The notes: a model not told the origin generated them from the sequence alone. Positions 21,554 through 57,959 are shown, counted from the stretch's first letter. The stretch is DNA of 64,000 bases from Escherichia coli (GCF_041886205.1 NZ_CP169029.1), one strand, 5' to 3'. Translations and numbers: made by a program.

Positions 21554-22546
<993 letters not shown>

Positions 22547-22872: not shown

Positions 22873-22901
22873 TTAACAAAATCAGGGGTAAGAAAGACTT
22901 T

Positions 22902-23152: not shown

Positions 23153-23373
23153 ATTTAATAATGGTTAGATGTGCAGAAATTATTACTCCACCCAAAAAAA
23201 CAGGATAAGGAATTCCAGATAATTGGGATAAACTTAACAATAAAAGAACTAACAACGTTTATTATCTCTCACGTAGAACGATGGCATCAAAAAAATCATC
23301 TATAAAGAAAGAGTGAAAGCGACGACAGTTTAATTTCACTGCAGGCTGGGTAGCTCCAGCCTGCTTTCCTGCA

Positions 23374-31511: not shown

Positions 31512-31575
31512 GCACTATCGGAAGTTCACCAGCCAACCGCAGCACGTTTTTGCATACAACGTGCCTGCGGTTTTT
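31512..31575 (+). terminator. DinI-gene terminator hairpin; copy 1 of a ~63-bp direct repeat
   Basis: GCACTATCGGAAGTTCACCAGCCAACCGCAGCACGTTTTTGCATACAACGTGCCTGCGGTTTTT: stem ACCGCAGCACGT/ACGTGCCTGCGGT followed by T5. Repeated at 34181-34243. Confidence 0.75.
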
Positions 31576-31731
31576 CGAGACTATTCTGACCGTCATACTT
31601 ACACATCAACTTAGCGCCCATCCAGAGAAATTATCTTTTTTGCATTCCGAAGATTCAAAGAGTTAGCCTAATTTTCCAGATAGTTTTCTCGACAAATCTG
31701 AGGTATTTTGGTTATCGATATAGTGCTTTGG

Positions 31732-32788
31732 GGCTTTGTTGAATAAATCAGATTTCGGGTAAGTCTCCCCCGTAGCGGGTTGTGTTTTCAGGCAATACGC
31801 ACGCTTTCAGGCATACCTGCTTTCGTCATTTTGTTCAGCGCTCGTACCAGGGCCATAGCCTCTGCAACCTGACCATCGTAGTCACGCAGCGTCAGTGAAC
31901 CCCCGAACAGCTGTTTTACCCGGTACATCGCCGTTTCCGCTATCGAGCGACGGTTGTAATCTGTTGTCCATTTCCACCGCGCATTACTCCCGGTCATTCG
32001 CTGATTAGCCACTGCACGGTTACGGTCTGCATATTCACCGGGCCAGTAACCCGCACCTTTTCGGGGAGGGATAAGCGCGCTGATTTTCTTACGCCGCAGT
32101 TCATCGTGACATAGCCGGGTATCGTAAGCGCCATCGGCGGCGGCTGACCTGATTTTCCGGTGGGTTTGCCGGATTAACCCGGGGAAGGCCTCTGAGTCCG
32201 TAACGTTGTTCAGCGACAGGTCAGCGCAGATGATTTCATGTGTTTTACTGTCAACGGCGAGATGCAGCTTACGCCAGATACGGCGGCGTTCCTGGCCATG
32301 CTTTTTGACTTTCCACTCGCCTTCACCGAAGACCTTCAGCCCGGTGGAATCAATTACCAGGTGTGCGATTTCACCCCGGGTGGGCGTTTTGAAACTGACA
32401 TTAACCGACTTTGCCCGCCTGCTGACACAGCTGTAATCCGGGCAGCGTAGCGGAACGTTCATCAGAGAAAAAATGGAATCAATAAAGCCCTGCGCAGCGC
32501 GCAGGGTCAGCCTGAATACGCGTTTAATGACCAGCACAGTCGTGATGGCAAGGTCAGAATAGCGCTGAGGTCTGCCTCGTGAAGAAGGTGTTGCTGACTC
32601 ATACCAGGCCTGAATAGCTTCATCATCCAGCCAGAAAGTTATGGAGCCACGGTTGATGAGGGCTTTATTGTAGGTGGGCCAGTTGGTGATTTTGAACTTT
32701 TGCTTTGCCACGGAACGGTCTGCGTTGTCGGGAAGATACGTGATCTGATCCTTCAACTCAGCAAAAGTTCGATTTATTCAACAAAGCC
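31732..32788 (-). mobile_element. IS903-group (IS5 family) insertion sequence, 1057 bp
   Basis: Perfect 18-bp terminal inverted repeats GGCTTTGTTGAATAAATC at both ends. 9-bp target-site duplication GTGCTTTGG at 31723-31731 and 32789-32797. A single transposase ORF lies inside. Confidence 0.95.
31788..32756 (-). CDS. IS903-type DDE transposase
   Basis: ...AKQKFKITNWPTYNKALINRGSITFWLDD...DSTGLKVFGEGEWKVKKHG...AETAMYRVKQLFGG matches the IS903/IS102 transposase as remembered. The family start (307 aa) would be the GTG at 32711. Confidence 0.93.
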   Translation of the reverse strand: MKDQITYLPDNADRSVAKQKFKITNWPTYNKALINRGSITFWLDDEAIQAWYESATPSSRGRPQRYSDLAITTVLVIKRVFRLTLRAAQGFIDSIFSLMNVPLRCPDYSCVSRRAKSVNVSFKTPTRGEIAHLVIDSTGLKVFGEGEWKVKKHGQERRRIWRKLHLAVDSKTHEIICADLSLNNVTDSEAFPGLIRQTHRKIRSAAADGAYDTRLCHDELRRKKISALIPPRKGAGYWPGEYADRNRAVANQRMTGSNARWKWTTDYNRRSIAETAMYRVKQLFGGSLTLRDYDGQVAEAMALVRALNKMTKAGMPESVRIA

Positions 32789-32843
32789 GTGCTTTGGCTG
32801 AGGAACAGCATTAAATTCAACCATTTTATTCATAGGGATTAAA

Positions 32844-33848
32844 ATGCAAGATACAGACGTTTACGTATACATAGGCGATGTTCACCGCTCTGGTCATCAC
32901 GACATCACCAAAGCGATTAAAGAAAGAAAAACTAACCATGGTTTACAAAAAAATGTTCTTTTTTGCGTCGCTACCTATGGCGGTGATCCCAGCGCAGGAT
33001 ATAGAATTGGCCGCGCTTTGCAACACAACTATGAACACATCACCGTTCTAGTTGTTGGCCCTTGCAAAAGTGCTGGAACCTTGATGGCTGTCGCCGCTCA
33101 TAAGCTCGTGATTGGTGATATGGGTGAGCTTGGTCCTCTAGACATCCAACTTAAGAAAAATGATGAGATCGGCGAATTGAGCTCGGGCCTTGTTATCGCA
33201 ACGGCGATTGATGAAATAAAAGAGTGCGCTATTTCGACCTTTAGATCATACGTACTTGATATAAAGTACAGAAACCAAATTAGCACGAAGATGTCTGCAG
33301 ATATTGCTGCTAAGCTTACTGAAGCAATCATATCGCCGATGGCCTCACAGATAGACCCCATCAAACTCGGGGAGCATCAACGAGCAATGAACATAGCGCT
33401 TTCCTATGGGGAGCGTTTGAATAGTCACTCGAAAAATCTTAAGGAAAGCTCCTTAGGCAAGTTGATCGCTGGATATCCAGCCCATGGTTTTGTGATAGAC
33501 CGTAAAGAGGCGAGGGAACTATTCAACCATGTTGAGAGTCCTACAGACTTTGCAGCCAACCTGTACGAAGTTCTTGGTGAGATGATTTCGTCAGGCGAAA
33601 TCTCTATCTTCGACAAACCGGTGATTAAAGATTTAACTCCTAAAAAACAATATGAAACAACTAACGCAGAGGAAGATTCCCATGACAACAGCAGAATTCA
33701 GGAAGGAGATGAAATCTCTGACCAAAATTCAGGAAGAGCAGAACCGCCAAGGGATGAACCTGTCCAGGGAAGCGATGGAAAACATGCGGAAATTGAAGAA
33801 GAGGCTGGAACCTTACCAGCAGAGCAACCAGATGAAGGCACTCAGTGA
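32844..33848 (+). CDS. Orphan ClpP/SppA/SDH-fold serine peptidase with an acidic low-complexity C-terminal tail
   Basis: 334 aa. Contains VVGPCKSAGTLMAVAAHKLVIGDMGELGPLDIQ (Ser nucleophile in a G-x-x-S-A-G context typical of Clp-fold peptidases) and later AHGFVIDRKEARELF. The last ~70 aa are D/E/Q/P/G-rich. It has its own RBS (AGGGA) and a downstream terminator. Confidence 0.65.
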   Translation: MQDTDVYVYIGDVHRSGHHDITKAIKERKTNHGLQKNVLFCVATYGGDPSAGYRIGRALQHNYEHITVLVVGPCKSAGTLMAVAAHKLVIGDMGELGPLDIQLKKNDEIGELSSGLVIATAIDEIKECAISTFRSYVLDIKYRNQISTKMSADIAAKLTEAIISPMASQIDPIKLGEHQRAMNIALSYGERLNSHSKNLKESSLGKLIAGYPAHGFVIDRKEARELFNHVESPTDFAANLYEVLGEMISSGEISIFDKPVIKDLTPKKQYETTNAEEDSHDNSRIQEGDEISDQNSGRAEPPRDEPVQGSDGKHAEIEEEAGTLPAEQPDEGTQ

Positions 33849-33864
33849 ATATTGTAGTTTCTGA
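33682..33864 (+). CDS. Possible overlapping (+1 frame) small helical protein; uncertain
   Basis: The alternative frame is open over the protease tail. MTTAEFRKEMKSLTKIQEEQNRQGMNLSREAMENMRKLKKRLEPYQQSNQMKALSEYCSF is preceded by AGGAAG 6 nt upstream of its ATG and ends 3 nt before the terminator. The GA-rich sequence could keep both frames open by chance. Confidence 0.25.
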   Translation: MTTAEFRKEMKSLTKIQEEQNRQGMNLSREAMENMRKLKKRLEPYQQSNQMKALSEYCSF

Positions 33865-33866
33865 TT

Positions 33867-33900
33867 GAGGACCTCGGCTACTACGCCGGGGTCTCTTTTT
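33867..33900 (+). terminator. Rho-independent terminator of the protease cassette
   Basis: GAGGACCTCGGC-TACTAC-GCCGGGGTCTC imperfect hairpin followed by TTTTT. Confidence 0.65.
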
Positions 33901-34180
33901 ACATCACTGGGCAGTCATCAAACTCCGCATTCCTAGCATCGTGATGATGTACGTGATTGCTCCGAATATTGAGTGTGAGTAATTGTAGCCACCACCATCA
34001 TCTGGCAGTGCTTCCGTTCTCCAGATTTATCAGGTGGGACTAAGGATGAGTACGATATCGCTTAATCCTGAAACTCCATTTCAGACAGGGACCCTATTAC
34101 AGACCGAAAGACCACAGATAAGTAGTTTGTTCATAAATTAATGCGTAGAATCAATAACGGCTGGAAATCATTCAATACTC

Positions 34181-34280: not shown

Positions 34281-34844
34281 TTATTTCGTTTGAATGCCAG
34301 TAACAGGAAATCGTTTATATAGGGTTGATAGCCCAACGTTATAGATACGTGCAACATAACGCCGTGATTTCCCTGCCGCTATGAGCGCTCCCATCTGTTG
34401 CCACTGCTCGTCGCTAAACTTCGGTCTACGCCCACCAATCCGGCCTTTGGATCTGGCAATAGCCAAACCAGCTAAAGTTCGCTCGCTATTCAAATCAGAT
34501 TCATACTGCGCAGCAGAAAGAATATTACGGAAATTATAGCGACCACTTGCTGTTTTCAGGTCTACACCATCTGTAATACTCCGAAAATTAACGCCTTTTT
34601 CGTGCAGATTTTGAAACATCAATAGCGCATGTAGCACATTTCTCCCTATCCGATCTAGCTTCCAGACAATCAACTCATCTCCACTTTTCATCACCGAAAT
34701 TAATTCCTTTAACACAGGGCGATTAGCTGTTCTGCCACTGGCATATTCTTCATAAATTCGCTCACAGCCAGCTGACTCAAGTGCAAGACGTTGCAACTCT
34801 GTATCCTGATGATTTGTTGATACACGAACATACCCGTAAATCAT
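34281..34844 (-). CDS. Serine-recombinase DNA invertase (Gin/Pin/Hin family)
   Basis: 187 aa. MIYGYVRVSTNHQDTELQ (catalytic Ser), ...DRIGRN..., and a C-terminal HTH GKSRRYVARIYNVGLSTLYKR. Adjacent to the invertible tail-fibre segment. Confidence 0.92.
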   Translation of the reverse strand: MIYGYVRVSTNHQDTELQRLALESAGCERIYEEYASGRTANRPVLKELISVMKSGDELIVWKLDRIGRNVLHALLMFQNLHEKGVNFRSITDGVDLKTASGRYNFRNILSAAQYESDLNSERTLAGLAIARSKGRIGGRRPKFSDEQWQQMGALIAAGKSRRYVARIYNVGLSTLYKRFPVTGIQTK

Positions 34845-34903
34845 GAGTGCTTCTCCTGTTGTAAAAACAGGAGAAGAGGCGAAATATCACCTGATTCAGA
34901 AAA

Positions 34904-34929
34904 ATATTTGAAAGGTTGGTTTGGGAGAA
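34904..34929. promoter_or_regulatory. Left inversion crossover site (gix/hix-like)
   Basis: ATATTTGAAAGGTTGGTTTGGGAGAA. Its 15 bp TTGGTTTGGGAGAAG (34916-34930) are an exact inverted copy of 36813-36827. Confidence 0.75.
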
Positions 34930-35415
34930 GGCTCAGCGTTACCCGTTGGTGTGCCTGTTCCGTGGCCTTCAGCCACACCACCAACAGGCTGGCTGAAATG
35001 CAACGGTGCACCTTTTTCTGCCGAAGAGTACCCAAAACTGGCAAAGGCTTACCCAAAGTTAAAATTACCGGATTTGCGCGGTGAGTTTATTCGCGGGTGG
35101 GATGATGGGCGAGGTGTTGATTCCGCGAGACTGCTGCTTTCAAGTCAGGCAGCATCTATCCTTGAACATAACCATGAAATGCATGGATGGACAGGGAACC
35201 CACTCATGGCTAGAGATGTTGGTGAATTAGGTACATCATCCGTATTTGCGGTGCAGTTGAGCATTGGCGATGGCGGGTTATTGTATTCGTGGAAGGATGG
35301 GAGTGGAACAACAAATGACAGTAAACGAATGGATAGAACAAATCATGTCAGTTCCGGCGCCGGTGATGGTAGCCCGCGAAACATTGCATTTAACTACATT
35401 GTGAGGGCTGCATAA
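34921..35415 (+). CDS. Silent alternative tail-fibre C-terminal cassette (Sv'-like, promoterless in this orientation)
   Basis: Begins inside the crossover site with no independent ATG or RBS. LGEGSALPVGVPVPWPSATPPTGWLKCNGAPFSAEEYPKLAKAYP... is the classic phage tail-fibre receptor-binding C-terminus. It would be fused to the constant part after inversion. Confidence 0.8.
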   Translation: MGEGSALPVGVPVPWPSATPPTGWLKCNGAPFSAEEYPKLAKAYPKLKLPDLRGEFIRGWDDGRGVDSARLLLSSQAASILEHNHEMHGWTGNPLMARDVGELGTSSVFAVQLSIGDGGLLYSWKDGSGTTNDSKRMDRTNHVSSGAGDGSPRNIAFNYIVRAA

Positions 35416-36018
35416 ATGGAACAGGCTATTTTGGGAAAAGACGGTTACGCTTTAAATGATGGGGAAATCATCGTACATAACTATGATGGCGAAACGCGGG
35501 AATATATTTCTACATCAACTGAATATCTCGCTGTCGGAGTCGGTATCCCGGCATGTTCCTGTCTGGATGCACCAGGTACACATAAAGCTGGTTATGCAAT
35601 CTGTCGCTCTGTAGATTTAAATTCATGGGAATATGTGCCAGACCATCGCGGTGAAACGGTCTATAGCACCAAAACAGGAGAATCAAAAGAAATCACCGCT
35701 CCGGGTGATTACCCTGAAAATACAACCACTATCGCCCCATTAACGCCATACGATAAATGGGATGGTGAGAAATGGGTGACCGATACTGAGGCACAGCATA
35801 GCGCCGCAGTAGACGCGGCAGAAGCACAGCGCCAGTCACTGATTGATGCTGCAATGGCTTCCATTAGTCTGATTCAACTGAAATTGCAGGCCGGACGTAA
35901 ACTGACGCAGGCAGAAACAACCAGACTTAACGCTGTGCTGGATTACATTGACGCGGTGACGGCAACAGATACCAGCACCGCGCCGGATGTCATCTGGCCT
36001 GAACTGCCGGAGGCGTAG
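35416..36018 (+). CDS. Tail-fibre assembly chaperone (Tfa/U'-like) of the silent cassette
   Basis: 200 aa. The C-terminal ...LIQLKLQAGRKLTQAETTRLNAVLDYIDAVTATDTSTAPDVIWPELPE is typical of the Tfa family. Confidence 0.85.
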   Translation: MEQAILGKDGYALNDGEIIVHNYDGETREYISTSTEYLAVGVGIPACSCLDAPGTHKAGYAICRSVDLNSWEYVPDHRGETVYSTKTGESKEITAPGDYPENTTTIAPLTPYDKWDGEKWVTDTEAQHSAAVDAAEAQRQSLIDAAMASISLIQLKLQAGRKLTQAETTRLNAVLDYIDAVTATDTSTAPDVIWPELPEA

Positions 36019-36442
36019 GCCATTCAATATCTGGCGCACTGGAGGTATCAACCAGCTCCAGTGCATCCAGATAATCCAGCCACAAATTATATTGCGCCAG
36101 TTCCTCACCTTTCAGACGACCAATAGCGGCTTTACCGGGCCATTGCTTACTGTTCATGTATTCGTTGGCCTGGTTAATTAGTAGCTGTCTTTCTGATTCA
36201 GTAATTTCAATAAGCTCTTCATGCGTGGGTGGAGGAATATCTGCCCACGCAGGCAGCCCATCATCTCCGGCAATACGGATTTTTCCTTGTGGCGGTTCAG
36301 CCATAAACTCACTGATAATATTTTGATTTACTTCCTTAGCGTCTGATAAATCCCATCCCTCTGATTTATATTTATCAATCATATCCACAGGGAAAAAAGC
36401 ATTATGCCTTGCGCTATAAACATATTCGTTCATATAAATCAC
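35990..36442 (-). CDS. Tail-fibre assembly chaperone (Tfa/U-like) of the expressed cassette
   Basis: 150 aa. ...LKGEELAQYNLWLDYLDALELVDTSSAPDIEWPTPP is the Tfa C-terminal motif. Convergent 29-bp overlap with the other tfa gene. Confidence 0.85.
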   Translation of the reverse strand: MIYMNEYVYSARHNAFFPVDMIDKYKSEGWDLSDAKEVNQNIISEFMAEPPQGKIRIAGDDGLPAWADIPPPTHEELIEITESERQLLINQANEYMNSKQWPGKAAIGRLKGEELAQYNLWLDYLDALELVDTSSAPDIEWPTPPAVQAR

Positions 36443-39713: not shown

Positions 39714-40792
39714 CAGAACGGGTCCTCCTGTACTCTGGCTTTTTTCTTTTTCCGCGCGCCGGGGTCTTCAGGTTCAGGCAGATAAGCATCAGGCGGGCCG
39801 ACACGGATTTCCGTCAGGGTGCCGTTCTGGTCCTGAGTAAACGTGACTTCCGAAACAAGCAGTTCGGTATTTTCGAAACCACAGACCGGATCAAAGACAA
39901 TCACCCGCTGGTTGGGCTGCCACAGCGTACCGTTACCCTGTCGCCAGCCCTGCACCACATAGGTGGTTTCATCCGTCCGCGCCGCCCGTTGTCGGGCTTC
40001 AAAGTCCGCACGGGCAATACAGCCTGCCCCCGTAGCCTGCCCTGTCTGCCTGATATACATCGGACGGTAACGGGCAATAAATGCGTCCTCTGTGCGGGCC
40101 CGCAGCGCGGTGGTGGTGGCCTCACCGAAATCATCGTCGTTTCCGGCACGCTGCCCCGCCACCTGGTAAACAGAAAACCGCTCCCGGATACTCTTCTCCG
40201 TATCGCAGGAAAGGATGTTTTCCCCAAGTACCAGCGCGGTATGTGCCCGCGTTGAGCCAATACCGCCAATCACCAGCCTGCCGTGCGGGTCGTCATAAGC
40301 CAGCGCCTGCTGCTGACCGAGTATTTTGTTAATCACCTCGATCACCGTTTCACCGTGATCAGGCTGGACATCAGGAATAACACCCGACGGCGCACCGCTG
40401 TTCACCACCTCAATACCGAAGGGCGCAGCAAGCGCCTGCGCAATCTGTACCAGTGATCGTCCGTTAAACTGTGTCGGTTCGGCTGCACAATCAATCAGGT
40501 CAGCGGTCAGACTGCGTCCGGCAATACCGGTGCTGACCGAACGGGCATCGTAACGAACGGGCGTCGCCTCCACCCAGCCGGTGATCACCAGCTCATCACC
40601 AATCAGCACCTCCACTTTTGAACCGTTTTTAATGCGCGGCTGAAGCATGGTGATACCCTCATCACCCGGCCACTGGCGAGTGATCTCCACACTGAAATCC
40701 CGCGCCAGCCGTTCAATACCGGCACCGATGCGCACCGATGTCCAGCCATTCCACTCCCGGCCATTTACCCGTAGCGTGACATTGTCGTTCAT
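39713..40792 (-). CDS. Baseplate hub protein (Mu gpP/gp44-like)
   Basis: 359 aa. Begins MNDNVTLRVNGREWNGWTSVRI, as in Mu P-like tail proteins. Synteny supports the call. Confidence 0.7.
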   Translation of the reverse strand: MNDNVTLRVNGREWNGWTSVRIGAGIERLARDFSVEITRQWPGDEGITMLQPRIKNGSKVEVLIGDELVITGWVEATPVRYDARSVSTGIAGRSLTADLIDCAAEPTQFNGRSLVQIAQALAAPFGIEVVNSGAPSGVIPDVQPDHGETVIEVINKILGQQQALAYDDPHGRLVIGGIGSTRAHTALVLGENILSCDTEKSIRERFSVYQVAGQRAGNDDDFGEATTTALRARTEDAFIARYRPMYIRQTGQATGAGCIARADFEARQRAARTDETTYVVQGWRQGNGTLWQPNQRVIVFDPVCGFENTELLVSEVTFTQDQNGTLTEIRVGPPDAYLPEPEDPGARKKKKARVQEDPF

Positions 40793-42162
40793 TGCACTGG
40801 CACCTTCAGAGGGATCACCGGCACAAAGCCGGGATGCGTAATGGCATTACGCCGGATAATGTCCGCGTCACGCGCCGCGTTATCAAACCAGGTCGCTGCC
40901 AGCACCAGCGCGGGTAAAACCTCATCCGGTGTGCGCTGAATGATCCGTGCAGACTGTTCAAGGCGCGTGTTGATATCCGCATTCAGATCTGCTTTCACCC
41001 GGCGCAGCGCCAGAAACAGCGCATCACTGGTTGTACGGGACAACTCCTTATCAATTGCCGTATTCAGTGTGTCGCGAATGTCAGTCAGTTCTTCCCACGT
41101 CGGCAGGTCAACCGTGTTTTTCACCGCCGGTGCATTGTTCAGTGCCGGATGCGTGACGGAAGGCCAGCCAGTGCTCTGCGCGGGTGTTGTTGCCTGCCCC
41201 ACTGCGGAATTCTGCATCACCGCGGAAGTTGTTGGCGCAGGCAATCGGGTGACGGCATACGCCGCTTCGCTGATTGCGGTCGTACGAAGGGTGCTGGCAA
41301 CCACGTTACGCTGCTGCGTAGCCGTGGCGGTGGTTTTACTGTCCGTTTTCCAGACGCCGCGCGGTTGCAGATCGCTGCCGAGGCTGACACCGGAAAGCGT
41401 TTTGATCATGGTGACCAGGTCGCTGGCGTTACCATAAAGGCGTTTCCCGGTACGCCACATTTTCTGCACCTGCTCAACGAAATTTTTGCCTGACGATGGC
41501 GGCGGCAGAAGTACCGAGATATCCCCCTGTAACAGCCTGGCGGCATCCGATACGGCAGAATCCACCACTTTCATCGCATCAGAAACATACCCCAGCATTA
41601 TGCTGGCATTACCGATAACGTCGTTCTGCACGAAATCCGCCACACCATCGATACTGAAACCGCTGAAGCTGTCACTGATGCAGTCATCCAGTGCAGAACA
41701 GGATGACATCAGCGTCTGCGCCGTCGCCGCACCTGATGTGGGGTAAGAGAGCTCTCCTGCTTCGACAAACTTCAGGTCAAAGCGGACAATACGTCCTTCA
41801 CTTTTCGATGTGCTGACCCGAACTTCCCCGTCAACACAGACTTTCAGCTCACCGTATGTCGGATGGACAAGCGTGCCGGGACCGGGTTTATTCAGCGCGT
41901 CAATCAGGCGATCGCGCTGGTCAAAACAGTCATCTCCCACCACATAAGCCGTGATGGACGGGCGGAAAGTGATTTTCCCCAGGTCTTCGGTATAGGGTTT
42001 GTCGCGGTTCGGGTATTCATGTGTTTCTACACGGCGACCGGTTCCCGCACTTTCTTCTTCAACCTTAAACGGCACACCTCGAAATGATGCTTCAAGTAGC
42101 TTTTCACGCCAGCCACTTCGAGAATCAGAGGATAGGTACGAAGAAATATGAGAAAAATCCAT
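40789..42162 (-). CDS. DNA-circulation protein (Mu gpN/gp43-like)
   Basis: 457 aa. N-terminal ...ASFRGVPFKVEEESAGTGRRVETHEYPNRDKPYTEDLG motif of the DNA-circulation family. Located downstream of the tape measure. Confidence 0.75.
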   Translation of the reverse strand: MDFSHISSYLSSDSRSGWREKLLEASFRGVPFKVEEESAGTGRRVETHEYPNRDKPYTEDLGKITFRPSITAYVVGDDCFDQRDRLIDALNKPGPGTLVHPTYGELKVCVDGEVRVSTSKSEGRIVRFDLKFVEAGELSYPTSGAATAQTLMSSCSALDDCISDSFSGFSIDGVADFVQNDVIGNASIMLGYVSDAMKVVDSAVSDAARLLQGDISVLLPPPSSGKNFVEQVQKMWRTGKRLYGNASDLVTMIKTLSGVSLGSDLQPRGVWKTDSKTTATATQQRNVVASTLRTTAISEAAYAVTRLPAPTTSAVMQNSAVGQATTPAQSTGWPSVTHPALNNAPAVKNTVDLPTWEELTDIRDTLNTAIDKELSRTTSDALFLALRRVKADLNADINTRLEQSARIIQRTPDEVLPALVLAATWFDNAARDADIIRRNAITHPGFVPVIPLKVPVQ

Positions 42163-42177
42163 GGCGTCACCTCAAAT

Positions 42178-42204
42178 AAAAACCGCGTGTAAACGCGGTT
42201 TTTT
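42178..42204. terminator. Bidirectional-looking rho-independent terminator immediately after the moron
   Basis: AAAAACCGCG-TGTAAA-CGCGGTTTTTT. On the minus strand the hairpin is followed by TTTTTATTT. It lies 15 bp upstream of the DNA-circulation gene start. Confidence 0.75.
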
Positions 42205-42218
42205 ATTAGGTAATAAAA

Positions 42219-42707
42219 TTAACGATCATAATCAACATTATGAGTATCTATTCTACATGATGAATAAGTAATTCCGCTTTCACCACTAATATTTACGCCA
42301 GCCTTTACCTTCCCTGTTTTCGTAACATCAACAAAGAATTGCCCTCTTGGCATTTTAAATGCAAAAGAGAAACCAATAATTTCCGAGTCAAAGTTATTTT
42401 CATCCTCACTAATTGGTACAATAAAAGTCAATGGTGCAGATTGTGAGTTATTTTCAAAATCAAAAGCACCAATGCTTTTATTAAACTCGTAGGATGCTTT
42501 TTTTATTAAAAGAGTTCCACTTGCCGACTTTGCTGGGCATATTACATACAGTCTATTTATTCCCTCTACATCTAGATCTATATTCTTATCCGCTGAAGTT
42601 TTAACGTTATCTATAAAGTATGTAGCAAGCTGCTTTTCCGTTACTGGCTTCGCAAAGGAGTTTAATGGCAGTCCTACAGCCAACAACAATATAAACATTT
42701 TCTTCAT
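42219..42707 (-). CDS. AT-rich moron encoding a Sec-exported protein of unknown function
   Basis: 162 aa from MKKMFILLLAVGLPLNSFA/KPVTEK (signal peptide, no lipobox Cys), with RBS AGGAGA. Two Cys residues. Composition is clearly more AT-rich than the flanking tail genes. Confidence 0.7.
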   Translation of the reverse strand: MKKMFILLLAVGLPLNSFAKPVTEKQLATYFIDNVKTSADKNIDLDVEGINRLYVICPAKSASGTLLIKKASYEFNKSIGAFDFENNSQSAPLTFIVPISEDENNFDSEIIGFSFAFKMPRGQFFVDVTKTGKVKAGVNISGESGITYSSCRIDTHNVDYDR

Positions 42708-42771
42708 ATTCTCTCCTACATTCAGCACAAACTTTACCACTCAATAACCCTACTTGATTAAAGTAGTTATA

Positions 42772-44673
42772 TTATCGTCTGAATGGAGAATACCCCACAT
42801 CGTGCGTGATTTTCATCAGGGGATCGGCTTTGCCCGGTACATCAATTATCTTCATACCTGGCGGAGCATTCTCGAACGTGACTTTCAGCTCGCTGTGCTG
42901 TGTCATGGAAGAAGATGGATTCAACAGCGGAACATTGGGTTTGTACTGACTCAGGCTGGCCTGATACTGCTCGTACTCTTTACGATCAAAAAAAGGCGTC
43001 CAGTCTGAAGCCAGAAACAGCCCTTTATTATCCAGCCAGTTAACCGTATCTTCAGGAACAACACTTTCCAGAGTATCTTTAACCGGCTCATACATCAGGG
43101 TTCCCAGAAAACCATATACCCCGGCCTTCCCGATAAAGCCGCGCCCTTTCCCCATCAATCCCGTTTCTGCCGATACCTTCCCCAGCGTACGCATCTCTCT
43201 GGTCACTGCGGTAATGGATTTGGTAACGTCAGCAACCCATTTGGTTGCCATAAACAGGGCAATCGCTTTCAGAACAGTTTCCCATCCCCCCATCGCCTGC
43301 GCCGTTTCATCCACCACGTGCCAGACTTTTTTTATGACAGGACCTACGGTTTCCCAATTATCAATAATGAGGTAAGCGCCACCAACCAGAAGAGCAATCA
43401 GCCCCTTAGCAGGCGTCATATTCATCACACCGCCGAGAACTTTCATGATTCTGGACAAAGAGCCTGCAGCGGCCCCCACTGTCAGTAAAGCCAGACCGAT
43501 TTTAGCAATGGTCTTAACGAGCTCCGGGTTTTCACGGACAAACGTTCTCACTTCCTCAAGGAGCGGTTTTACCGCTTCAAGACCATCATTAACCTCAGGA
43601 AGAAACGTTTCCCCCAGAGTGGAAGAAATGGCATCAAGTTGATTTTGCAGAAGTAAAAGCTGGTTTTCCGTCGTCGCTGCCCTCGAAGCATATTCCTTCT
43701 GCATCGAACTGCCATACTGCTGGGAATCCGCAACCCGCCTGAAGTTGGTACGCAACAAATCAAGGTTAGTCAGCAGAGGTGCTATCGCGCCCAGAGACTC
43801 TTTCCCGAACAGGGCATTCAGCACAGCTGCCTGTTTTTCTTTAGGCACTTTAGACATCGCATCCAGTACAGACAGCATGGTTCCCCGGGCATCTTTCTGC
43901 ATATCAGCAGCTAATTTCTTCGGATTGATCCGCAGAAAACGTAATGCCTGTTTCTGCGATTTTGTCGCGGAATTTCCCGCGGTCAGGGAAAGCATGAAGT
44001 TCTTGATCCCTGTGGCGGCAATTTCTGACTCCACGCCCATCCCGGCAATGGTTGCCCCCATTGCCGCGATTTCGCCGGAAGCCACACCTGCAACACCACC
44101 TAAAGGACCAATACGCGTAACAATATCGGAGATTTTCTTCGCATTCGCCGGACCGGTATTACCAAGGTAGTTGATTTTGTCAGCCAGCCCGGCCACTTCA
44201 TCCTGCGTCATATTAAACGCAGTACGCCACTGGGCCATCATCTGCCCGGACTCTTCAGCCGTGGTATCAAAGGCCACGCCCATCTTCACCGCATCAGTGG
44301 CAAACTGCATCAGTTCATCACGTGCAATCCCGGCCTGACCGCCAGCCGCCACAATTTCCGCGATCCCGTCTGCAGACATGGGAAGCTCAGTAGACAAAGC
44401 GCGTACCTGCTCCGTCATGGCCTTAAACGCATCCGGCGTATCCAGACCGTCCACCACTTTGCGGACATCAGCCATCTTCGATTCAAGGGTGATGGCTGAT
44501 TTTACAGGGAGTGCCAGTGCCCCCATTATTGCAGTACCCGCCCCGGCAGCGCCCAGAGCAAGGCTGGAGACTTCTTTCTGAAACCCCTTAAGCTGACGCT
44601 GCATACCTTTAAGCGGGCCGGATAGCCTGTCAACGGCGGTGATGATGGCTTTCAGCTGAAAATTATCAGCCAT
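42772..44673 (-). CDS. Tail tape-measure protein
   Basis: 633 aa. Ala/Gly-rich helical and hydrophobic segments. Preceded by the chaperone/frameshift gene pair. Confidence 0.88.
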   Translation of the reverse strand: MADNFQLKAIITAVDRLSGPLKGMQRQLKGFQKEVSSLALGAAGAGTAIMGALALPVKSAITLESKMADVRKVVDGLDTPDAFKAMTEQVRALSTELPMSADGIAEIVAAGGQAGIARDELMQFATDAVKMGVAFDTTAEESGQMMAQWRTAFNMTQDEVAGLADKINYLGNTGPANAKKISDIVTRIGPLGGVAGVASGEIAAMGATIAGMGVESEIAATGIKNFMLSLTAGNSATKSQKQALRFLRINPKKLAADMQKDARGTMLSVLDAMSKVPKEKQAAVLNALFGKESLGAIAPLLTNLDLLRTNFRRVADSQQYGSSMQKEYASRAATTENQLLLLQNQLDAISSTLGETFLPEVNDGLEAVKPLLEEVRTFVRENPELVKTIAKIGLALLTVGAAAGSLSRIMKVLGGVMNMTPAKGLIALLVGGAYLIIDNWETVGPVIKKVWHVVDETAQAMGGWETVLKAIALFMATKWVADVTKSITAVTREMRTLGKVSAETGLMGKGRGFIGKAGVYGFLGTLMYEPVKDTLESVVPEDTVNWLDNKGLFLASDWTPFFDRKEYEQYQASLSQYKPNVPLLNPSSSMTQHSELKVTFENAPPGMKIIDVPGKADPLMKITHDVGYSPFRR

Positions 44674-54865: not shown

Positions 54866-54891
54866 AAATATATTCCTGTTCTTTGTCCAGA

Positions 54892-55164
54892 CTATTTGCC
54901 TGCTGCCAGCAAAGCGTTACGGCGCATCTCGATACTTCGAATTCCCGCTTTGTCAATATTGCATTGTCCCAACGCTGACAACAGACTCACATTCAACTCC
55001 AGACTGGCACCATACGTCAGCGGATTGGGTATAAACGGTACAGGAGTATCAGAAGTCAGGCTGGCTGGCAGTGGTGCCACCGGAACGCTCACGTAAACCG
55101 TTCGCGAATTTCCGCAACCGGTCAGCAGCGGCAGCAGGCACAGGACGTGAAGCACAATCATCAT
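54892..55164 (-). CDS. o-spanin (Rz1-like outer-membrane lipoprotein), overlapping the i-spanin gene
   Basis: From MMIVLHVLCLLPLLTGC (lipobox LLTGC). Overlaps the 3' part of the i-spanin gene in another frame. Confidence 0.75.
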   Translation of the reverse strand: MMIVLHVLCLLPLLTGCGNSRTVYVSVPVAPLPASLTSDTPVPFIPNPLTYGASLELNVSLLSALGQCNIDKAGIRSIEMRRNALLAAGK

Positions 55165-55441
55165 CCGCAACAGCCACTTTGATATCTTCCTGGGTTCTCT
55201 GTGACTCCAGTGCGATCTGCTGTTTTGCATGTTGATTCGCCTCCTGAATGATGTTCGTTATTGCCATAGTACGCAGAACATTCGCGGTGATAGCCTCAGT
55301 AGAATCAGCTCGCTGTTCCGCAGCGTCAGCACGCTTCTGTTCCTTCAGAAACTTTCCGTGGTAGTGATTAGCTGACCAGACAAGACCACCAGCAATACAA
55401 GCAATAAACGTTAAAATGAGCGCCCAATAACTCATCTTCAT
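55049..55441 (-). CDS. i-spanin (Rz-like)
   Basis: 130 aa. N-terminal TM YWALILTFIACIAGGLVW followed by a coiled-coil periplasmic domain. Downstream of the endolysin. Confidence 0.78.
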   Translation of the reverse strand: MKMSYWALILTFIACIAGGLVWSANHYHGKFLKEQKRADAAEQRADSTEAITANVLRTMAITNIIQEANQHAKQQIALESQRTQEDIKVAVADDDCASRPVPAAAADRLRKFANGLRERSGGTTASQPDF

Positions 55442-56052
55442 ACCAGCAGCGCCGCCCGCGCCTTGTTGTATCGAACCTTACGATCCTCAATACCGTTCAG
55501 ACCGCCGTTAATGATGCGCGTAACACGATTAATATCAGCACCGTAGACCATGCAGCCTTTAGAGGTGTAGAACCATGCAGCTGAGCGCGCGGCCTGTAGC
55601 TCCTGCTCCAGTTGTTCAGGTGAGGTCACCAGATCTAACTTCAGCGCCGCGCCACAGATGCGATAATTATGAAGGCCAGTGATTTGAATTAATCCTCTAC
55701 CACGATATTTCCAGCCATCACCGGGTGCTTTGTTACCCAGTCGGTTGCTATACACCAGATTGGCAATAGCATCCTGACGAGCTGCATGTCCGGATGTTCT
55801 GCCAAGGGCATCAGCCTGCTGCTGTGTGATCCTCTTTCCGAACGTCGCCACCAGCGCAGATGGTGTGTAGTTAAAATTTTCAACTACGGCGCTAAACCCC
55901 ATCGACTCATGGCCTACCTGAGCGATAAACATTGCCTGATCCGCTGGTGCTGTAATGCCGAATTCCTTCATCGCCGCATCAATGTGCGGAAACCAGCGCG
56001 CAGCCAGCCCGGCGCTAATACCAGCCGCCTTTTGAAATAATTGTTGGTTCAT
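55438..56052 (-). CDS. Endolysin, glycoside hydrolase family 19 (chitinase-like)
   Basis: 204 aa. ...FIAQVGHESMGF...YRGRGLIQITGLHNYR... GH19 catalytic motifs. Confidence 0.85.
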   Translation of the reverse strand: MNQQLFQKAAGISAGLAARWFPHIDAAMKEFGITAPADQAMFIAQVGHESMGFSAVVENFNYTPSALVATFGKRITQQQADALGRTSGHAARQDAIANLVYSNRLGNKAPGDGWKYRGRGLIQITGLHNYRICGAALKLDLVTSPEQLEQELQAARSAAWFYTSKGCMVYGADINRVTRIINGGLNGIEDRKVRYNKARAALLV

Positions 56053-56333
56053 TAGTGCCTCAGATGATCAACCAGACGTGCAACGTTGCCTCTGACGGCC
56101 ACCAGCACGGAAAGAAAAATAGTGTTCGCCACGATAATGGGCCATGAGGAATGAGGATAAATCCCACAGAGATAGGCCAACGGAACAGCACTGTATGTAA
56201 CAGTAATCAGCCAGGCTAAACGTGAAACCCAAGGACGATGCCGCGAATCACCACGACGATAAAACATCAGAGTAATAACAACACAAGCACATAACAGCGC
56301 ATTTATAGTTGCTGTCGGGTCATTTAGCTCCAC
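56052..56333 (-). CDS. Holin-like membrane protein
   Basis: 93 aa with three hydrophobic segments, directly upstream of the endolysin. Confidence 0.65.
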   Translation of the reverse strand: MELNDPTATINALLCACVVITLMFYRRGDSRHRPWVSRLAWLITVTYSAVPLAYLCGIYPHSSWPIIVANTIFLSVLVAVRGNVARLVDHLRH

Positions 56334-56706
56334 CTGAACCTCCCCGGCGCGTTATGAGCGCCACCAGCGAGCCGATATCCTGATTATTCAGGAACGTCAG
56401 GATCTTAACGGCTAAAGCAGAGACGATTACGGCACCAATAGCATCCAGAGGTTTATCACTGTATCCGGTCAAGTTCGCCAGCTTGGAGCCAACCAACCCA
56501 GAGCAAAGAATCCCGGCAATATATGACACGATAAAATATGCCAGTCGGCGCGATGCACTCAGATCTGCTGCTGTTGCTATGTAGAATACAGCCCCTGCAA
56601 ATGCGCCAAATACAACGCCGTAATCAGTTCCGGTCAGCAGTCCATAAACACTGGCACCCGTCAGGGCACCACCAGCCAGCCCAGTACCGGAAATCGGATC
56701 GGACAT
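56320..56706 (-). CDS. Holin-like membrane protein
   Basis: 128 aa. Gly/Ala-rich TM helices. Second member of the holin/antiholin pair position. Confidence 0.6.
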   Translation of the reverse strand: MSDPISGTGLAGGALTGASVYGLLTGTDYGVVFGAFAGAVFYIATAADLSASRRLAYFIVSYIAGILCSGLVGSKLANLTGYSDKPLDAIGAVIVSALAVKILTFLNNQDIGSLVALITRRGGSGGAK

Positions 56707-56785
56707 TTAGCCCCCTCTTAATTGCTGTTGGTCCTCTCAGATATGAGGGGAAGGGATCTTAATGACAGTCTGTTTATTATTTCAG

Positions 56786-57043
56786 TCAAATACTACCCTG
56801 TTGATGATTTCTCAGAAGCGAACTTGACTCCCAGGGGAAACTCAACTTTCCGTTAAAACCACCAGCAGACATTCGTTCAATTTCCACAGAAATATCACTG
56901 AGCCGTTCTTCAAGCTCTGCTTTTTCTTTTACCAGACGGTTATAGCGGCTTAGATGAAGCTTTTGCTGCTCCAGCCAGTCTTCAAGCTGTTCAACAGTCA
57001 TACCAGGGTTAAAAAAATATGGCTGCTGCTTTTCGCCCTGCAT
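56786..57043 (-). CDS. Hypothetical coiled-coil protein, first gene of the late operon
   Basis: 85 aa from MQGEKQQPYFFNPGMTVEQLEDWLEQQK, with GGAGG 7 nt upstream. The longer ORF-track start would lie inside the terminator. Confidence 0.55.
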   Translation of the reverse strand: MQGEKQQPYFFNPGMTVEQLEDWLEQQKLHLSRYNRLVKEKAELEERLSDISVEIERMSAGGFNGKLSFPWESSSLLRNHQQGSI

Positions 57044-57060
57044 TATTGACCTCCAGAAAA

Positions 57061-57086
57061 GCAAAAACCCCGCCGAAGCGAGGTTT
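57061..57086 (-). terminator. tR'-like terminator between the late promoter and the late genes
   Basis: The minus strand reads AAACCTCGC-TTCG-GCGGGGTTTTTGCTTTT: a GC-rich hairpin with one G-U pair, followed by a T-run. Confidence 0.7.
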
Positions 57087-57125
57087 GTTATGATTTCGTT
57101 AACGGCAGACATACAAAGCCCATCG

Positions 57126-57162
57126 TTAGGAGAATCCTAACCATATTTTTTGAAAAATGCAA
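57126..57162 (-). promoter_or_regulatory. PR'-like late promoter with a promoter-proximal AACGAT pause-type element
   Basis: The minus strand reads TTGCAT-17 nt-TAGGAT-TCTCCTA-ACGATGGG. It has the same spacing and the same ACGATGGG start as the remembered lambda PR' (TAAATT-TGACTCA-ACGATGGG). It lies between the Q-like gene and the terminator. Confidence 0.55.
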
Positions 57163-57193
57163 GCATCATGTCGCCATCTTCGGCGAAAATCAT

Positions 57194-57946
57194 TTATCTT
57201 GTCACTTTTCTCAATTGTGTCTCTGCATATGCTTCTTCCTGCCAGCACTTTGTAACCAGTTTATCAATGACATCTGCATATCCTTTGTACCACTGATAAT
57301 CCGTCAGGTCTGGTACCAGCTTCTGGACATGATGCCGCGCCAGTGTGGTTGGTAAACGGCTAAACCGGTTTCCATTGCAACGCCCACAAATCTTATAAAC
57401 AGGCGTGCCATGAAGCCGGGTCCTTTTTTCATCCAGGACAATACCTTTACCCTTACACCCTCTGCACGCTGTGCTGACTTCTCCCTTACCATGACAATGC
57501 TGACATAGTTCCTTCACCCACTCTTCCTTGATAACAGATTCCCCGCTTCTGGAGTGTTTCACCACTTCGCGCAATACATTATGAAATCCAGTACCAGCAC
57601 AATGCTCACAGCGAGCCTTACTTGCCGCAGACCTGGAATAATCAGCAAAGGCAAAATTCACAAGGTAAGGAATAATCTGTAGCCGGGTTTCTTCACTCAA
57701 TTTATTCAATGTCGGGCTATCCAGTGCCATCGCGTAATTGAGCAGACCTTCAATCGCAAACTGAGGATCCTGAACACCAACTTTTGCCAGGAATAAGGCA
57801 AACCCAAGCGGTGCTTTCGACTGCACCATCCCCTGCGCAGCCATCACATCCGTAATTGTTAAACCACCAGAGCCTGTCGCCGGTGCGTCATCGCTCAATT
57901 TTGGAGATTTTGGGGAGTAATATTTCGGTAAGGCTTCAAGGTTCAT
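57194..57946 (-). CDS. Putative late-gene antiterminator (Q-like) with four CxxCxGxG zinc motifs
   Basis: 250 aa. CEHCAGTG, CQHCHGKG, CRGCKGKG, CGRCNGNR. Immediately upstream of the PR'-like promoter/terminator and the lysis genes. Confidence 0.6.
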   Translation of the reverse strand: MNLEALPKYYSPKSPKLSDDAPATGSGGLTITDVMAAQGMVQSKAPLGFALFLAKVGVQDPQFAIEGLLNYAMALDSPTLNKLSEETRLQIIPYLVNFAFADYSRSAASKARCEHCAGTGFHNVLREVVKHSRSGESVIKEEWVKELCQHCHGKGEVSTACRGCKGKGIVLDEKRTRLHGTPVYKICGRCNGNRFSRLPTTLARHHVQKLVPDLTDYQWYKGYADVIDKLVTKCWQEEAYAETQLRKVTR

Positions 57947-57959
57947 GCTCGTTCTCCAC

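What the first reader, a model, noticed from the sequence alone, without database searches (positions are those of the whole stretch)
42163..42771. AT-rich secreted-protein moron with its own terminator, inserted between the tape-measure and DNA-circulation genes
In Mu-type tail clusters the tape-measure gene is followed directly by the DNA-circulation gene. Here a ~600-bp block of clearly lower GC content interrupts them.

**The encoded protein**
- 162 aa with a Sec signal peptide (MKKMFILLLAVGLPLNSFA/KP).
- No lipobox.
- Two Cys residues, consistent with a periplasmic disulfide.
- No family that I recognise.

**The terminator**
A strong hairpin terminator (42178-42204) follows, only 15 bp before the next tail gene.

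This is the classic moron layout. Precedents such as HK97 gp15 show that morons embedded in tail regions can encode superinfection-exclusion proteins acting at the envelope or DNA-entry step. A periplasmic product next to the tape-measure gene is a good candidate for such a role.
Basis: partly seen in the sequence, partly recalled or inferred. Interest (0 to 1): 0.6.

Follow-up and report, generated by a model that had tools for sequence, protein, structure and literature searches.

The report
Exported-protein moron in prophage tail operon
A small, AT-rich extra gene for an exported beta-barrel protein sits between two tail genes of an E. coli prophage, in a slot where related prophages carry other exported-protein genes or nothing; it is probably a phage-exclusion or host-benefit gene, but its function is untested.

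Summary
A 162-aa ORF (42219-42707, minus strand) has GC 0.34 against 0.52-0.58 in its flanks. It has a Sec-type signal peptide and two cysteines. A strong hairpin plus U-run lies 15 nt before the Mu-N-like DNA-circulation gene.

The block is accessory. SfIV is 98.7% identical on both flanks but lacks it. Only about 8% of E. coli copies of this tail cluster carry it.

The family is tiny: 17 hits among 1.84 billion representatives, and no Pfam, NCBIfam or PADLOC match. The two cysteines are conserved. The predicted fold is an N-terminal helix plus an eight-stranded beta-barrel (pLDDT 85) with no close structural relative.

Five diverged members (31-49% identity) follow the tape-measure gene in Mu-type tail clusters. 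Three others lie in the maintenance region of phage-plasmid-like elements.

The same slot holds three other unrelated AT-rich cargo genes, each with a hydrophobic N-terminus that looks like a signal or membrane anchor. One matches a PHROG annotated "Sie-like".

No convincing own promoter was found. Superinfection exclusion is plausible but untested. I rate it a new member of a known kind (a moron).

The parts
42219..42707 (-). Cargo CDS: a 162-aa precursor with signal peptide residues 1-19 (42651-42707) and a mature protein of 143 aa (about 15.8 kDa, pI 5.2). Cysteines at 57 and 151. Predicted fold is an N-terminal helix plus an 8-stranded beta-barrel.
   Evidence: Translation. phrog_5586 matches full length, E 7e-85, function unknown. 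AF2 model pLDDT 85, pTM 0.78. Family alignment.
42711..42716 (-). Shine-Dalgarno GGAGAG, 3 nt upstream of the ATG (spacer AAU).
   Evidence: Read from the sequence. In the fold it pairs with the UUCUCC of the last TMP codons.
42178..42204 (-). Intrinsic-terminator-like hairpin with a U-run, 14 nt after the cargo stop codon and 15 nt before the N start.
   Evidence: Fold -20.5 kcal/mol, z -3.8. Sub-threshold Rfam hits to terminator-containing models only. Non-homologous hairpin-plus-U-run elements sit in the same place after the P0012 and P0007 homologues.
42115..42785 (.). Whole divergent cassette relative to SfIV. It comprises the last few TMP codons, the 64-nt spacer, the cargo gene, the terminator, and the first 17 or so codons of the N gene.
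   Evidence: Three-way alignment of the window, SfIV and vB_EcoM-720R4. N-terminal N sequences differ by cassette type.
42731..42739 (-). Weak candidate extended -10 element TGGTAAAGT. It is the only promoter-like feature upstream of the cargo and is unverified.
   Evidence: Found by eye in the sequence. Consensus scans found no sigma-70 promoter. A chance occurrence in AT-rich DNA is plausible.
42772..44673 (-). Tail tape-measure gene (633 aa), upstream neighbour.
   Evidence: PF10145 E 1e-42 and phrog_28. 99% identical to the SfIV TMP.
40789..42162 (-). Mu-N-like DNA-circulation / baseplate hub gene (457 aa), downstream neighbour.
   Evidence: PF07157 E 2e-33 and phrog_184.
57194..57946 (-). 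Q antiterminator of the same prophage, at the head of the minus-strand late operon. It would allow late transcription to read through the cargo terminator.
   Evidence: PF03589 E 1.9e-53. Holin lies at 56320-56706 and endolysin at 55438-56052 downstream.

Best explanation
**What is shown**

This is a horizontally exchanged accessory cassette (a moron) in the late tail operon of an SfV/SfIV-like, Q-regulated prophage with a Mu-type contractile tail. It lies between the tape-measure gene and the Mu-N-like gene. It encodes a protein that is exported through Sec and cleaved after NSFA. The mature protein is predicted to fold as a small N-terminal helix plus an eight-stranded beta-barrel.

**What is inferred about the protein**

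The barrel is probably soluble and periplasmic. The conserved Cys57-Cys151 pair probably staples the first strand to the last. Neither point was checked on coordinates.

**What is inferred about transcription**

The terminator confines any transcript made in the lysogen to the cargo gene. Q-modified polymerase reads through it during lytic growth, so the baseplate genes are still expressed.

**What is inferred about function**

The protein most likely acts in the cell envelope for the benefit of the lysogen. The most probable role is superinfection exclusion. The protein would bind either a component that incoming phages eject into the periplasm (the tape-measure or tail-tip proteins of contractile or long-tailed phages) or an envelope factor those phages need. 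This would block DNA entry without affecting virion assembly, which takes place in the cytoplasm.
For: **Accessory nature**
- SfIV is 98.7% identical across both flanks but lacks the block.
- The block occurs at 101 places, against 1231 places for the adjacent N gene, in 5426 complete E. coli genomes.
- It is present in 15 of 80 IMG/VR loci whose N protein is at least 95% identical.

**Foreign composition**
- Low GC holds in every lineage examined: cargo 0.34-0.40 against 0.42-0.58 in neighbouring genes.

**Terminator**
- Predicted in the window.
- Hairpins of different sequence but the same position follow the 48-49% identical homologues.

**Read-through**
- A Q antiterminator is present in the window.

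**Export**
- The signal peptide and the AxA|K cleavage site are conserved across the family.

**Real protein**
- Confident AF2 fold.
- Both cysteines and several motifs are conserved at 25-49% identity.

**Envelope or lysogen-benefit role**
- The same slot holds three other unrelated AT-rich cargo ORFs, each with a hydrophobic N-terminus that looks like a signal or membrane anchor.
- One of them matches phrog_8545 'superinfection exclusion Sie-like', E 1.5e-49.
- Distant family members P0018, P0020 and P0022 lie next to ParA, a cI-like repressor and toxin-antitoxin genes of phage-plasmid-like elements. That is among genes expressed in the carried state.
- Cargo dN/dS is 0.8-0.9, against 0.04-0.15 for TMP, N and P in the same loci.

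**Precedents**
- HK97 gp15 (PMC3594210).
- TP-J34 Ltp, which targets the TMP (cited in PMC10883804).
- T4 Imm, which binds the TMP (preprint 10.64898/2026.03.06.709160).
Against: - No sigma-70 consensus promoter lies upstream, so expression from the repressed prophage is not supported by sequence.
- In one relative (L088, P0015) the gene is packed 16-17 nt from both neighbours with no terminator, like an ordinary operon member.
- There is no similarity to any known Sie or defence family.
- A dN/dS near 1 among close variants rests on only 11-14 substitutions and is also compatible with relaxed constraint.
- SfV has a terminator-like hairpin in the empty slot, so a hairpin at this junction is not unique to cargo.
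- The PHROG 'Sie-like' label on the allelic cargo is an annotation, not a test.
Confidence: 0.45

Rival explanations
1. It is a lysogenic-conversion factor aimed at the host's environment rather than at phages. Possible roles are a periplasmic binding or inhibitor protein, such as a PliC/MliC-like lysozyme inhibitor or a ligand-binding calycin-type barrel, that improves survival in animals or under stress.
For: - The protein is exported, has a conserved cysteine pair and is an accessory prophage gene.
- It is found in human, animal and pathogen isolates, including ETEC H10407 and Shigella.
- An SASG motif partly recalls the MliC/PliC SxSGAxY motif. This rests on my recollection of that motif and was not tested.
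Against: - Structural scores are at the level of generic 8-stranded barrels.
- There is no Pfam MliC hit.
- The profile search against PDB sequences finds no such protein.
- This reading gives no explanation for the repeated placement next to the tape-measure gene.
Confidence: 0.22
2. It is a late-expressed phage function, transcribed only with the tail operon. The protein is exported during lytic growth to alter the envelope of the dying cell. It might mask the receptor so that progeny are not lost on debris, as T5 Llp does, or it might modulate lysis.
For: - The gene is co-oriented with the Q-dependent late operon and embedded in it, and no recognisable promoter of its own was found.
- The L088 homologue is tightly packed in the operon with no terminator.
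Against: - Terminators follow the gene in three diverged lineages, which makes sense mainly for a transcript made without antitermination.
- In the predicted fold of the read-through RNA, the Shine-Dalgarno sequence pairs with the end of the TMP ORF. This would disfavour translation from the late transcript, though the evidence is weak.
- Distant relatives lie in maintenance regions, not late operons.
Confidence: 0.18
3. It is a decaying or neutral passenger ORF with no current function. It persists because it hitch-hikes between essential tail genes.
For: - dN/dS is 0.8-0.9 among close variants.
- Internal-deletion variants P0002-P0004 occur in metagenome assemblies.
- The family is very small.
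Against: - The ORF is full length in all 15 IMG/VR loci, and every listed E. coli match is an annotated CDS.
- Across 25-49% identity the signal peptide, both cysteines and the core motifs are conserved, and the AF2 fold is confident.
- The gene is retained intact in Shigella, where IS1 has cut the adjacent N gene.
Confidence: 0.08
4. It is a tail structural or assembly component specific to this tail variant.
For: Its position is inside the tail gene cluster, next to the TMP, in five diverged members.
Against: - A cleavable Sec signal sends it out of the cytoplasm, where tails assemble.
- It is absent from SfIV, whose TMP is 99% identical, and from about 92% of E. coli copies of this cluster.
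- Its composition is foreign.
- Relatives occur outside tail modules.
Confidence: 0.03

Closest known systems
HK97 gene 15 moron (gp15 superinfection-exclusion protein; Juhala et al. 2000, Cumby et al. 2012, as summarised in PMC3594210)
   Same: - Extra gene of deviating GC, absent from close relatives.
- Embedded in the tail operon of a lambdoid, Q-regulated temperate coliphage, directly next to the tape-measure gene.
- Envelope-targeted product.
   Different: - gp15 is a small inner-membrane protein of the YebO family, placed upstream of the TMP, with a defined promoter and a tested exclusion phenotype.
- Here the product is a 143-aa secreted beta-barrel with no sequence relation to gp15.
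- It lies downstream of the TMP in a contractile Mu-type tail module.
- The promoter is not identified and no phenotype is known.
Envelope Sie proteins that target the tape-measure protein: TP-J34 Ltp (cited in PMC10883804) and T4 Imm (preprint 10.64898/2026.03.06.709160)
   Same: - Phage-encoded proteins located outside the cytoplasm that would meet the incoming TMP or tail tip.
- The T4 case shows that this works against contractile tails.
   Different: - Ltp is a lipoprotein built from helical repeat domains, and Imm is a membrane protein.
- No sequence or structural similarity was detected here.
- No TMP interaction was tested.
Lambda lom and bor (morons for envelope proteins in or near the tail region). 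This comparison rests on my own knowledge.
   Same: - Lysogen-expressed accessory genes for exported envelope proteins in a lambdoid late region.
- Lom is an 8-stranded barrel.
   Different: - Lom is an outer-membrane Ail/OmpX-family barrel with long strands and a C-terminal aromatic signal. Bor is a lipoprotein.
- The protein here has short strands (5-10 residues), a hydrophilic C-terminus, a conserved cysteine pair and no Pfam OMP hit.
- These features suggest it is soluble, but that is an inference.
PliC/MliC periplasmic lysozyme inhibitors
   Same: - Small exported eight-stranded beta-barrels.
   Different: - No sequence-family match.
- The structural score is no better than for avidins or designed barrels.
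- An extra N-terminal helix is present.
phrog_5586 (PHROGs v4)
   Same: Full-length match, E 7e-85. This is the family the protein belongs to.
   Different: The PHROG has no assigned function, so membership gives a name but no mechanism.

Membership tests
Moron (Hendrix/Juhala sense) | Extra DNA absent from otherwise closely related phage genomes | tested here: met
   - SfIV is 98.7% identical on both flanks and lacks it.
- 101 against 1231 places in E. coli genomes.
Moron (Hendrix/Juhala sense) | Base composition different from surrounding genes | tested here: met
   GC 0.34 (GC3 0.26) against 0.52-0.58 in the flanks. The same holds in diverged homologue loci.
Moron (Hendrix/Juhala sense) | Own factor-independent terminator downstream | tested here: met
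   - Hairpin plus U-run at 42178-42204, -20.5 kcal/mol, z -3.8.
- Analogous elements follow the P0007 and P0012 homologues.
- This is a prediction only. The consensus scanner missed it.
Moron (Hendrix/Juhala sense) | Own promoter upstream | tested here: inconclusive
   - No sigma-70 consensus site was found.
- Only a weak extended -10-like TGGTAAAGT lies at 42739-42731.
Moron (Hendrix/Juhala sense) | Expressed from the repressed prophage | not testable with these tools
   No transcriptome data were accessible. Literature searches for the accessions found nothing.
Known superinfection-exclusion or defence protein families | Sequence membership in a described Sie or defence family | tested here: not met
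   - PADLOC gives 0 hits, and NCBIfam gives 0.
- Pfam gives none above threshold.
- The PHROG hit has unknown function.
Known superinfection-exclusion or defence protein families | Exclusion phenotype (block of adsorption or DNA entry) | not testable with these tools
   This requires plating and DNA-entry assays.
Sec-exported periplasmic protein | Cleavable N-terminal signal peptide and no further membrane segment | tested here: met
   - The n, h and c regions and S-F-A|K are present. No other hydrophobic stretch and no lipobox were found.
- The feature is conserved in the family.
- This is a heuristic check, because no SignalP run was available.
PliC/MliC lysozyme inhibitors | Match to the family profile and its conserved motifs | tested here: not met
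   - No Pfam hit.
Outer-membrane 8-stranded barrels (Lom/Ail/OmpX) | Family profile match, long transmembrane strands and a C-terminal aromatic beta-signal | tested here: not met
   - No Pfam hit.
- Predicted strands are 5-10 residues long.
- The C-terminus ...HNVDYDR is hydrophilic.
Mu-type tail structural or assembly proteins | Conserved in all relatives with the same tail and made in the cytoplasm | tested here: not met
   It is absent from most relatives, and it carries a signal peptide.

The most novel reading that the evidence does not exclude
The junction between the tape-measure gene and the Mu-N-like gene in SfV/SfIV-like tail modules is a dedicated exchange slot for envelope-acting exclusion genes. 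At least four unrelated cargo families with signal- or anchor-like N-termini occupy it. Together they would fill about a third of the E. coli copies, if every genome match lies in the slot. On this reading, the family described here is a previously unrecognised class of soluble periplasmic beta-barrel Sie protein. It would bind the tape-measure or tail-tip complex that contractile-tailed phages eject into the periplasm.
Probability: 0.3. Interest if true: 0.6.

Novelty: new member of a known kind. Interest (0 to 1): 0.4.

Why it matters
**Value if the exclusion reading is right**
- Very few soluble periplasmic proteins are known to block DNA entry, and none that I know of is known for Mu-type contractile tails.
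- A positive result would give a handle on what these phages expose in the periplasm during injection.

**The slot observation**
- Four alternative cargo genes with signal- or anchor-like N-termini occur at one junction.
- One of them is already annotated Sie-like.
- Together they make a compact, testable panel for comparing envelope-level exclusion in common E. coli and Shigella prophages.

**Value if it is not exclusion**
- It remains an ordinary uncharacterised moron.

Tried and rejected
**Structure and fold searches**
- AF2 with a 3-sequence alignment gave an unusable model (pLDDT 41). Only the 14-sequence alignment worked.
- Foldseek against afdb50 was not available.
- Foldseek against PDB and BFVD gave nothing below E 0.02.

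**Sequence searches**
- The profile search of PDB sequences gave only an insignificant Calx-beta similarity (E 0.12). I rejected it as spurious because the predicted fold is a barrel, not a sandwich.
- The genome-contig scan with the full family alignment failed for lack of a conserved stretch. A narrower alignment found only 3 loci.
- A second profile search of the 5.8-billion-protein set added no annotated relatives.
- Literature searches for the protein accessions and the PHROG id returned nothing. Searches for morons at this junction found no prior description.

**Ideas tested and dropped**
- Promoter scans with the tool and with a relaxed script found no credible sigma-70 site.
- I checked whether pairing of the Shine-Dalgarno sequence with the TMP 3' end is conserved among homologues. 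It is not consistently predicted.
- I considered that cargo type tracks TMP type for functional reasons. I rejected this, because it is explained by physical linkage, and because family members occur next to both TMP lineages.

**Correction to my own assumption**
- I first assumed the window was strain RM9088. The window differs from RM9088 near the integrase and in the Q-to-lysis region, so Q was re-identified in the window itself.

Full report

Yes. On the minus strand, 42219-42707 encodes a 162-aa protein starting MKKMFILLLAVGLPLNSFA|KPVTEK. A GGAGAG Shine-Dalgarno sequence precedes the ATG. RefSeq annotates the same CDS in the near-identical prophage of E. coli RM9088.

The ORF has GC 0.342 and GC3 0.26. 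The neighbouring genes are much richer: tape-measure (TMP, 42772-44673) 0.52, Mu-N-like DNA-circulation gene (40789-42162) 0.55, and sheath 0.58. It is the only stretch below 0.40 GC in the prophage part of the window.

The neighbours are identified by Pfam and PHROGs: PF10145 at E 1e-42 and PF07157 at E 2e-33.

The hairpin at 42178-42204 folds at -20.5 kcal/mol, z = -3.8, and no shuffle folds as well. It ends 15 nt before the N start codon. The consensus scanner did not report it. I infer that this is because the stem can extend into the flanking A and U runs. Rfam gives only sub-threshold hits, to models that contain terminators.

**2. What kind of prophage is this?**

The window carries a lambdoid-regulated prophage with a Mu-type contractile tail, of the SfV/SfIV type. 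All late genes are on the minus strand, in this order:
- Q antiterminator (57194-57946, PF03589, E 2e-53);
- holin, endolysin and spanin;
- HNH and terminase;
- HK97-like head genes;
- sheath, tube, chaperone, TMP, the cargo gene, N, and the baseplate and fibre genes.

The window is close to RM9088 but not identical to it. It differs near the integrase and between Q and the lysis genes.

**3. The block is accessory and travels as a cassette.**

Phage vB_EcoM-720R4 carries it at 99% identity. Shigella phage SfIV is 98.7% identical on both sides but lacks it, with only 24 bp between TMP and N.

The three-way alignment shows that divergence from SfIV begins in the last few TMP codons and ends around codon 17 of N, roughly 42785 to 42115. 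It is therefore a replaced junction cassette, not a clean intergenic insertion.

In 5426 complete E. coli genomes the N gene occurs at 1231 places, but the block occurs at only 101, about 8%.

**4. The slot is a hot spot.**

I surveyed 80 IMG/VR loci whose N protein is at least 95% identical to the window's. Occupancy of the junction was as follows:

| Occupant | Loci | Place matches in complete E. coli genomes |
|---|---|---|
| Empty (15-27 bp gap) | 32 | not counted |
| This cargo gene | 15 | 101 |
| 164-170-aa ORF, MRIFVFFISALLSFNLAAEEC... | 14 | 86 |
| 176-aa ORF, MKGYITASVILGAAAIFSSLIISG... | 12 | 183 |
| 148-aa ORF on the opposite strand, MKKLLKWILYIFIGLVIIGYFAGNN... | 4 | 74 |

The remaining loci could not be scored, or in one case had a split TMP gene.

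- The three other cargo ORFs are unrelated to this one. They are AT-rich (GC 0.31-0.38). Each has a hydrophobic N-terminus that looks like a signal peptide or membrane anchor; I judged this by eye from the translations and ran no prediction on them.
- The opposite-strand cargo is a PF12869 OB-fold protein and matches phrog_8545, annotated 'superinfection exclusion Sie-like' (E 1.5e-49). The other two fall in PHROGs of unknown function.
- The 176-aa and opposite-strand cargo types also have terminator-like hairpins downstream.
- For the E. coli counts I did not check that every place lies in this slot.

**5. The protein family.**

The family has a full-length match to phrog_5586, which has no assigned function. 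It has no Pfam, NCBIfam or PADLOC family.

An exhaustive profile search of 1.84 billion representatives found only 17 proteins. The word-indexed searches found 10-15 clusters, all labelled 'hypothetical' and from Escherichia, Shigella and Pantoea. A scan of one genome per species found three loci.

The alignment shows several conserved features:
- a signal peptide with an AxA|K-type cleavage site;
- an N-terminal helix;
- both cysteines;
- motifs such as SASG, YEF.K, FKMPRGQFFVDV and AGVN..GESG.

With this 14-sequence alignment AF2 gives pLDDT 85 and pTM 0.78. The model has a helix at residues 24-41 followed by eight strands.

Cys57 follows strand 1 and Cys151 lies in strand 8. In an up-and-down barrel those two strands are usually neighbours, so a barrel-closing disulfide is plausible. 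This is an inference, because I had no access to the model coordinates.

The short strands, the hydrophilic C-terminus and the cysteine pair argue for a soluble periplasmic protein rather than an outer-membrane barrel. This too is an inference.

**6. Where relatives live.**

Most diverged members keep the same position. Identities below are global alignments to the window protein, except P0013.

| Member | Identity to the window protein | Context |
|---|---|---|
| P0007 | 49% | Directly after a TMP; the N start that follows is cut by IS1 |
| P0012 | 48% | Between a TMP and a DNA_circ_N gene |
| P0013 | 42% | Between a TMP and a DNA_circ_N gene |
| P0015 | 36% | Between a TMP and a DNA_circ_N gene |
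| P0019 | 31% | After a TMP and a HIRAN-domain gene |

- In these loci the cargo is again much lower in GC than most of its neighbours. It is also far more diverged than they are: cargo 48-49% against sheath 82-86%.
- The P0007 and P0012 genes are each followed by a GC-rich hairpin and U-run of unrelated sequence, just before the N start.
- The P0015 gene has 16-17-nt gaps on both sides and no terminator.
- Three distant members (P0018 from Pantoea, P0020 and P0022) are not in tail modules at all. They lie beside ParA, a cI-like repressor, toxin-antitoxin pairs and, in one case, an IncFII RepA of phage-plasmid-like elements. That is among genes expressed in the carried state.
- Family members occur next to both TMP lineages. 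The cargo-TMP association within E. coli is therefore best explained by physical linkage.

**7. Evolutionary rate.**

I compared the window with variants at 94-96% protein identity. The cargo shows 8.5-10.5 non-synonymous and 2.5-3.5 synonymous differences, giving dN/dS of 0.8-0.9. TMP, N and P in the same loci give 0.04-0.15 at similar dS.

The counts are small. The pattern fits either diversifying or relaxed selection. Deep conservation of the fold core argues against simple decay.

**8. Transcription logic.**

One step is partly shown. A terminator-like hairpin separates the cargo from N, and the prophage has a Q antiterminator.

One step is inferred from established lambda biology. Q-modified RNA polymerase reads through intrinsic terminators. 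Late expression of N and the baseplate genes is therefore preserved, while any transcript made without Q stops after the cargo.

One step is not shown: a promoter. Neither the tool nor a relaxed scan finds a sigma-70 site in the 64-nt spacer or in the last 180 nt of TMP. The only candidate is an extended -10-like TGGTAAAGT at 42739-42731. The upstream regions of the homologues share no obvious promoter.

In the predicted fold of the read-through RNA, the cargo Shine-Dalgarno sequence (42716-42711) pairs with UUCUCC in the last TMP codons (42790-42785). The fold scores -23 kcal/mol, z = -3.5. This pairing is not consistently predicted in homologues, so I record it only as an unexplained detail.

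**9. Interpretation.**

The cassette is a genuine moron-type accessory gene for an exported protein. A virion structural or assembly role is very unlikely for three reasons: it has a signal peptide, it is absent from phages with a 99% identical TMP, and its composition is foreign.

The most probable function is an envelope-level benefit to the lysogen, and superinfection exclusion is the leading candidate. Four lines of evidence support this:
- alternative occupants of the slot also appear envelope-targeted, and one matches a PHROG annotated Sie-like;
- distant relatives sit among maintenance genes;
- the protein evolves fast;
- there are precedents of envelope proteins that block the tape-measure step, namely HK97 gp15 (PMC3594210), TP-J34 Ltp (cited in PMC10883804) and T4 Imm (preprint 10.64898/2026.03.06.709160).

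None of this is a functional test. A host-directed periplasmic factor, or a purely late-expressed envelope function, remain real alternatives.

**10. Novelty.**

I found no paper describing this family or this junction as a cargo slot. The SfIV genome paper describes a moron elsewhere, between Q and the lysis genes.

The kind of element is well known, so I rate it a new member of a known kind with moderate interest. Its main value is that it provides a compact set of testable candidates for envelope-level exclusion.

Noticed in passing
L037:3353-3991, L034:3312-3949, L073:3442-3985 (IMG/VR loci; same TMP-N junction as window 42163-42771): Three other unrelated AT-rich cargo genes with signal- or anchor-like N-termini occupy the same junction in close relatives. 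The opposite-strand one is a PF12869 OB-fold protein that matches a PHROG annotated 'Sie-like'. They occur at 86, 183 and 74 places in complete E. coli genomes.
   Followed up: partly
L004:5355-5412 and L092:5480-6310: In Shigella flexneri and one E. coli strain, the N gene downstream of the 49%-identical homologue is cut about 30 nt after its start by what looks like IS1. I recognised the terminal inverted repeat by eye, and a 167-aa InsB-sized ORF is present. The cargo gene itself is intact (389 member sequences).
   Followed up: partly
window 42711-42725 pairing with 42779-42790 (minus strand): In the predicted RNA fold, the cargo Shine-Dalgarno region pairs (6+6 bp) with the last codons of the TMP gene. 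Those codons lie inside the cassette-specific sequence. The fold scores z = -3.5. The pairing is not consistently predicted in homologues, and its meaning is unknown.
   Followed up: partly
L003:5625-5660 (phage SfV, TMP-N gap): SfV has a terminator-like hairpin plus U-run (GUCCCACUCCGGUGGGAUUUUUU) in the 45-bp gap between TMP and N, although it carries no cargo gene there. It could be a remnant of a lost cassette or a general punctuation point.
   Followed up: partly
window 31515-34121: About 2.6 kb next to the integrase end is absent from the otherwise similar RM9088 prophage. It holds a DDE transposase (31788-32756, minus strand) and a 334-aa ORF (32844-33848) with only a weak hit to a ClpP-like SDH protease.
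   Followed up: partly
window 34281-36442: A resolvase/invertase-family recombinase (34281-34844) lies next to oppositely oriented tail-fibre and fibre-assembly ORFs. This looks like a Gin/Cin-type invertible host-range segment.
   Followed up: no
window 54866-57964: The Q-to-lysis region differs from RM9088. It has a different Q type (PF03589 with a DnaJ-like zinc finger), a Phage_holin_8 holin, a GH19-like endolysin, and a 108-aa ORF (56786-57112) with no family between Q and the holin.
   Followed up: partly
P0002, P0003, P0004 (metagenome-derived variants of the cargo protein): These variants lack 18-30 internal residues around FENN...DENNFDSE, which would remove about one or two predicted beta-strands. 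They may be repeat-mediated deletions or assembly artefacts.
   Followed up: no
P0007 N-terminus (L004:4825-4890): The Shigella homologue has a lipobox-like LTSC as well as an AQA|K signal-peptidase-I site. It might be a lipoprotein, unlike the window protein.
   Followed up: no
L090:2387-2974: In one distant locus a HIRAN-domain gene sits between the TMP and the cargo homologue. This suggests that the slot can hold more than one accessory gene.
   Followed up: no
window 8351-10100 and 22101-23550: There are two further low-GC islands (0.36-0.37) in the chromosomal part of the window, outside the prophage.
   Followed up: no
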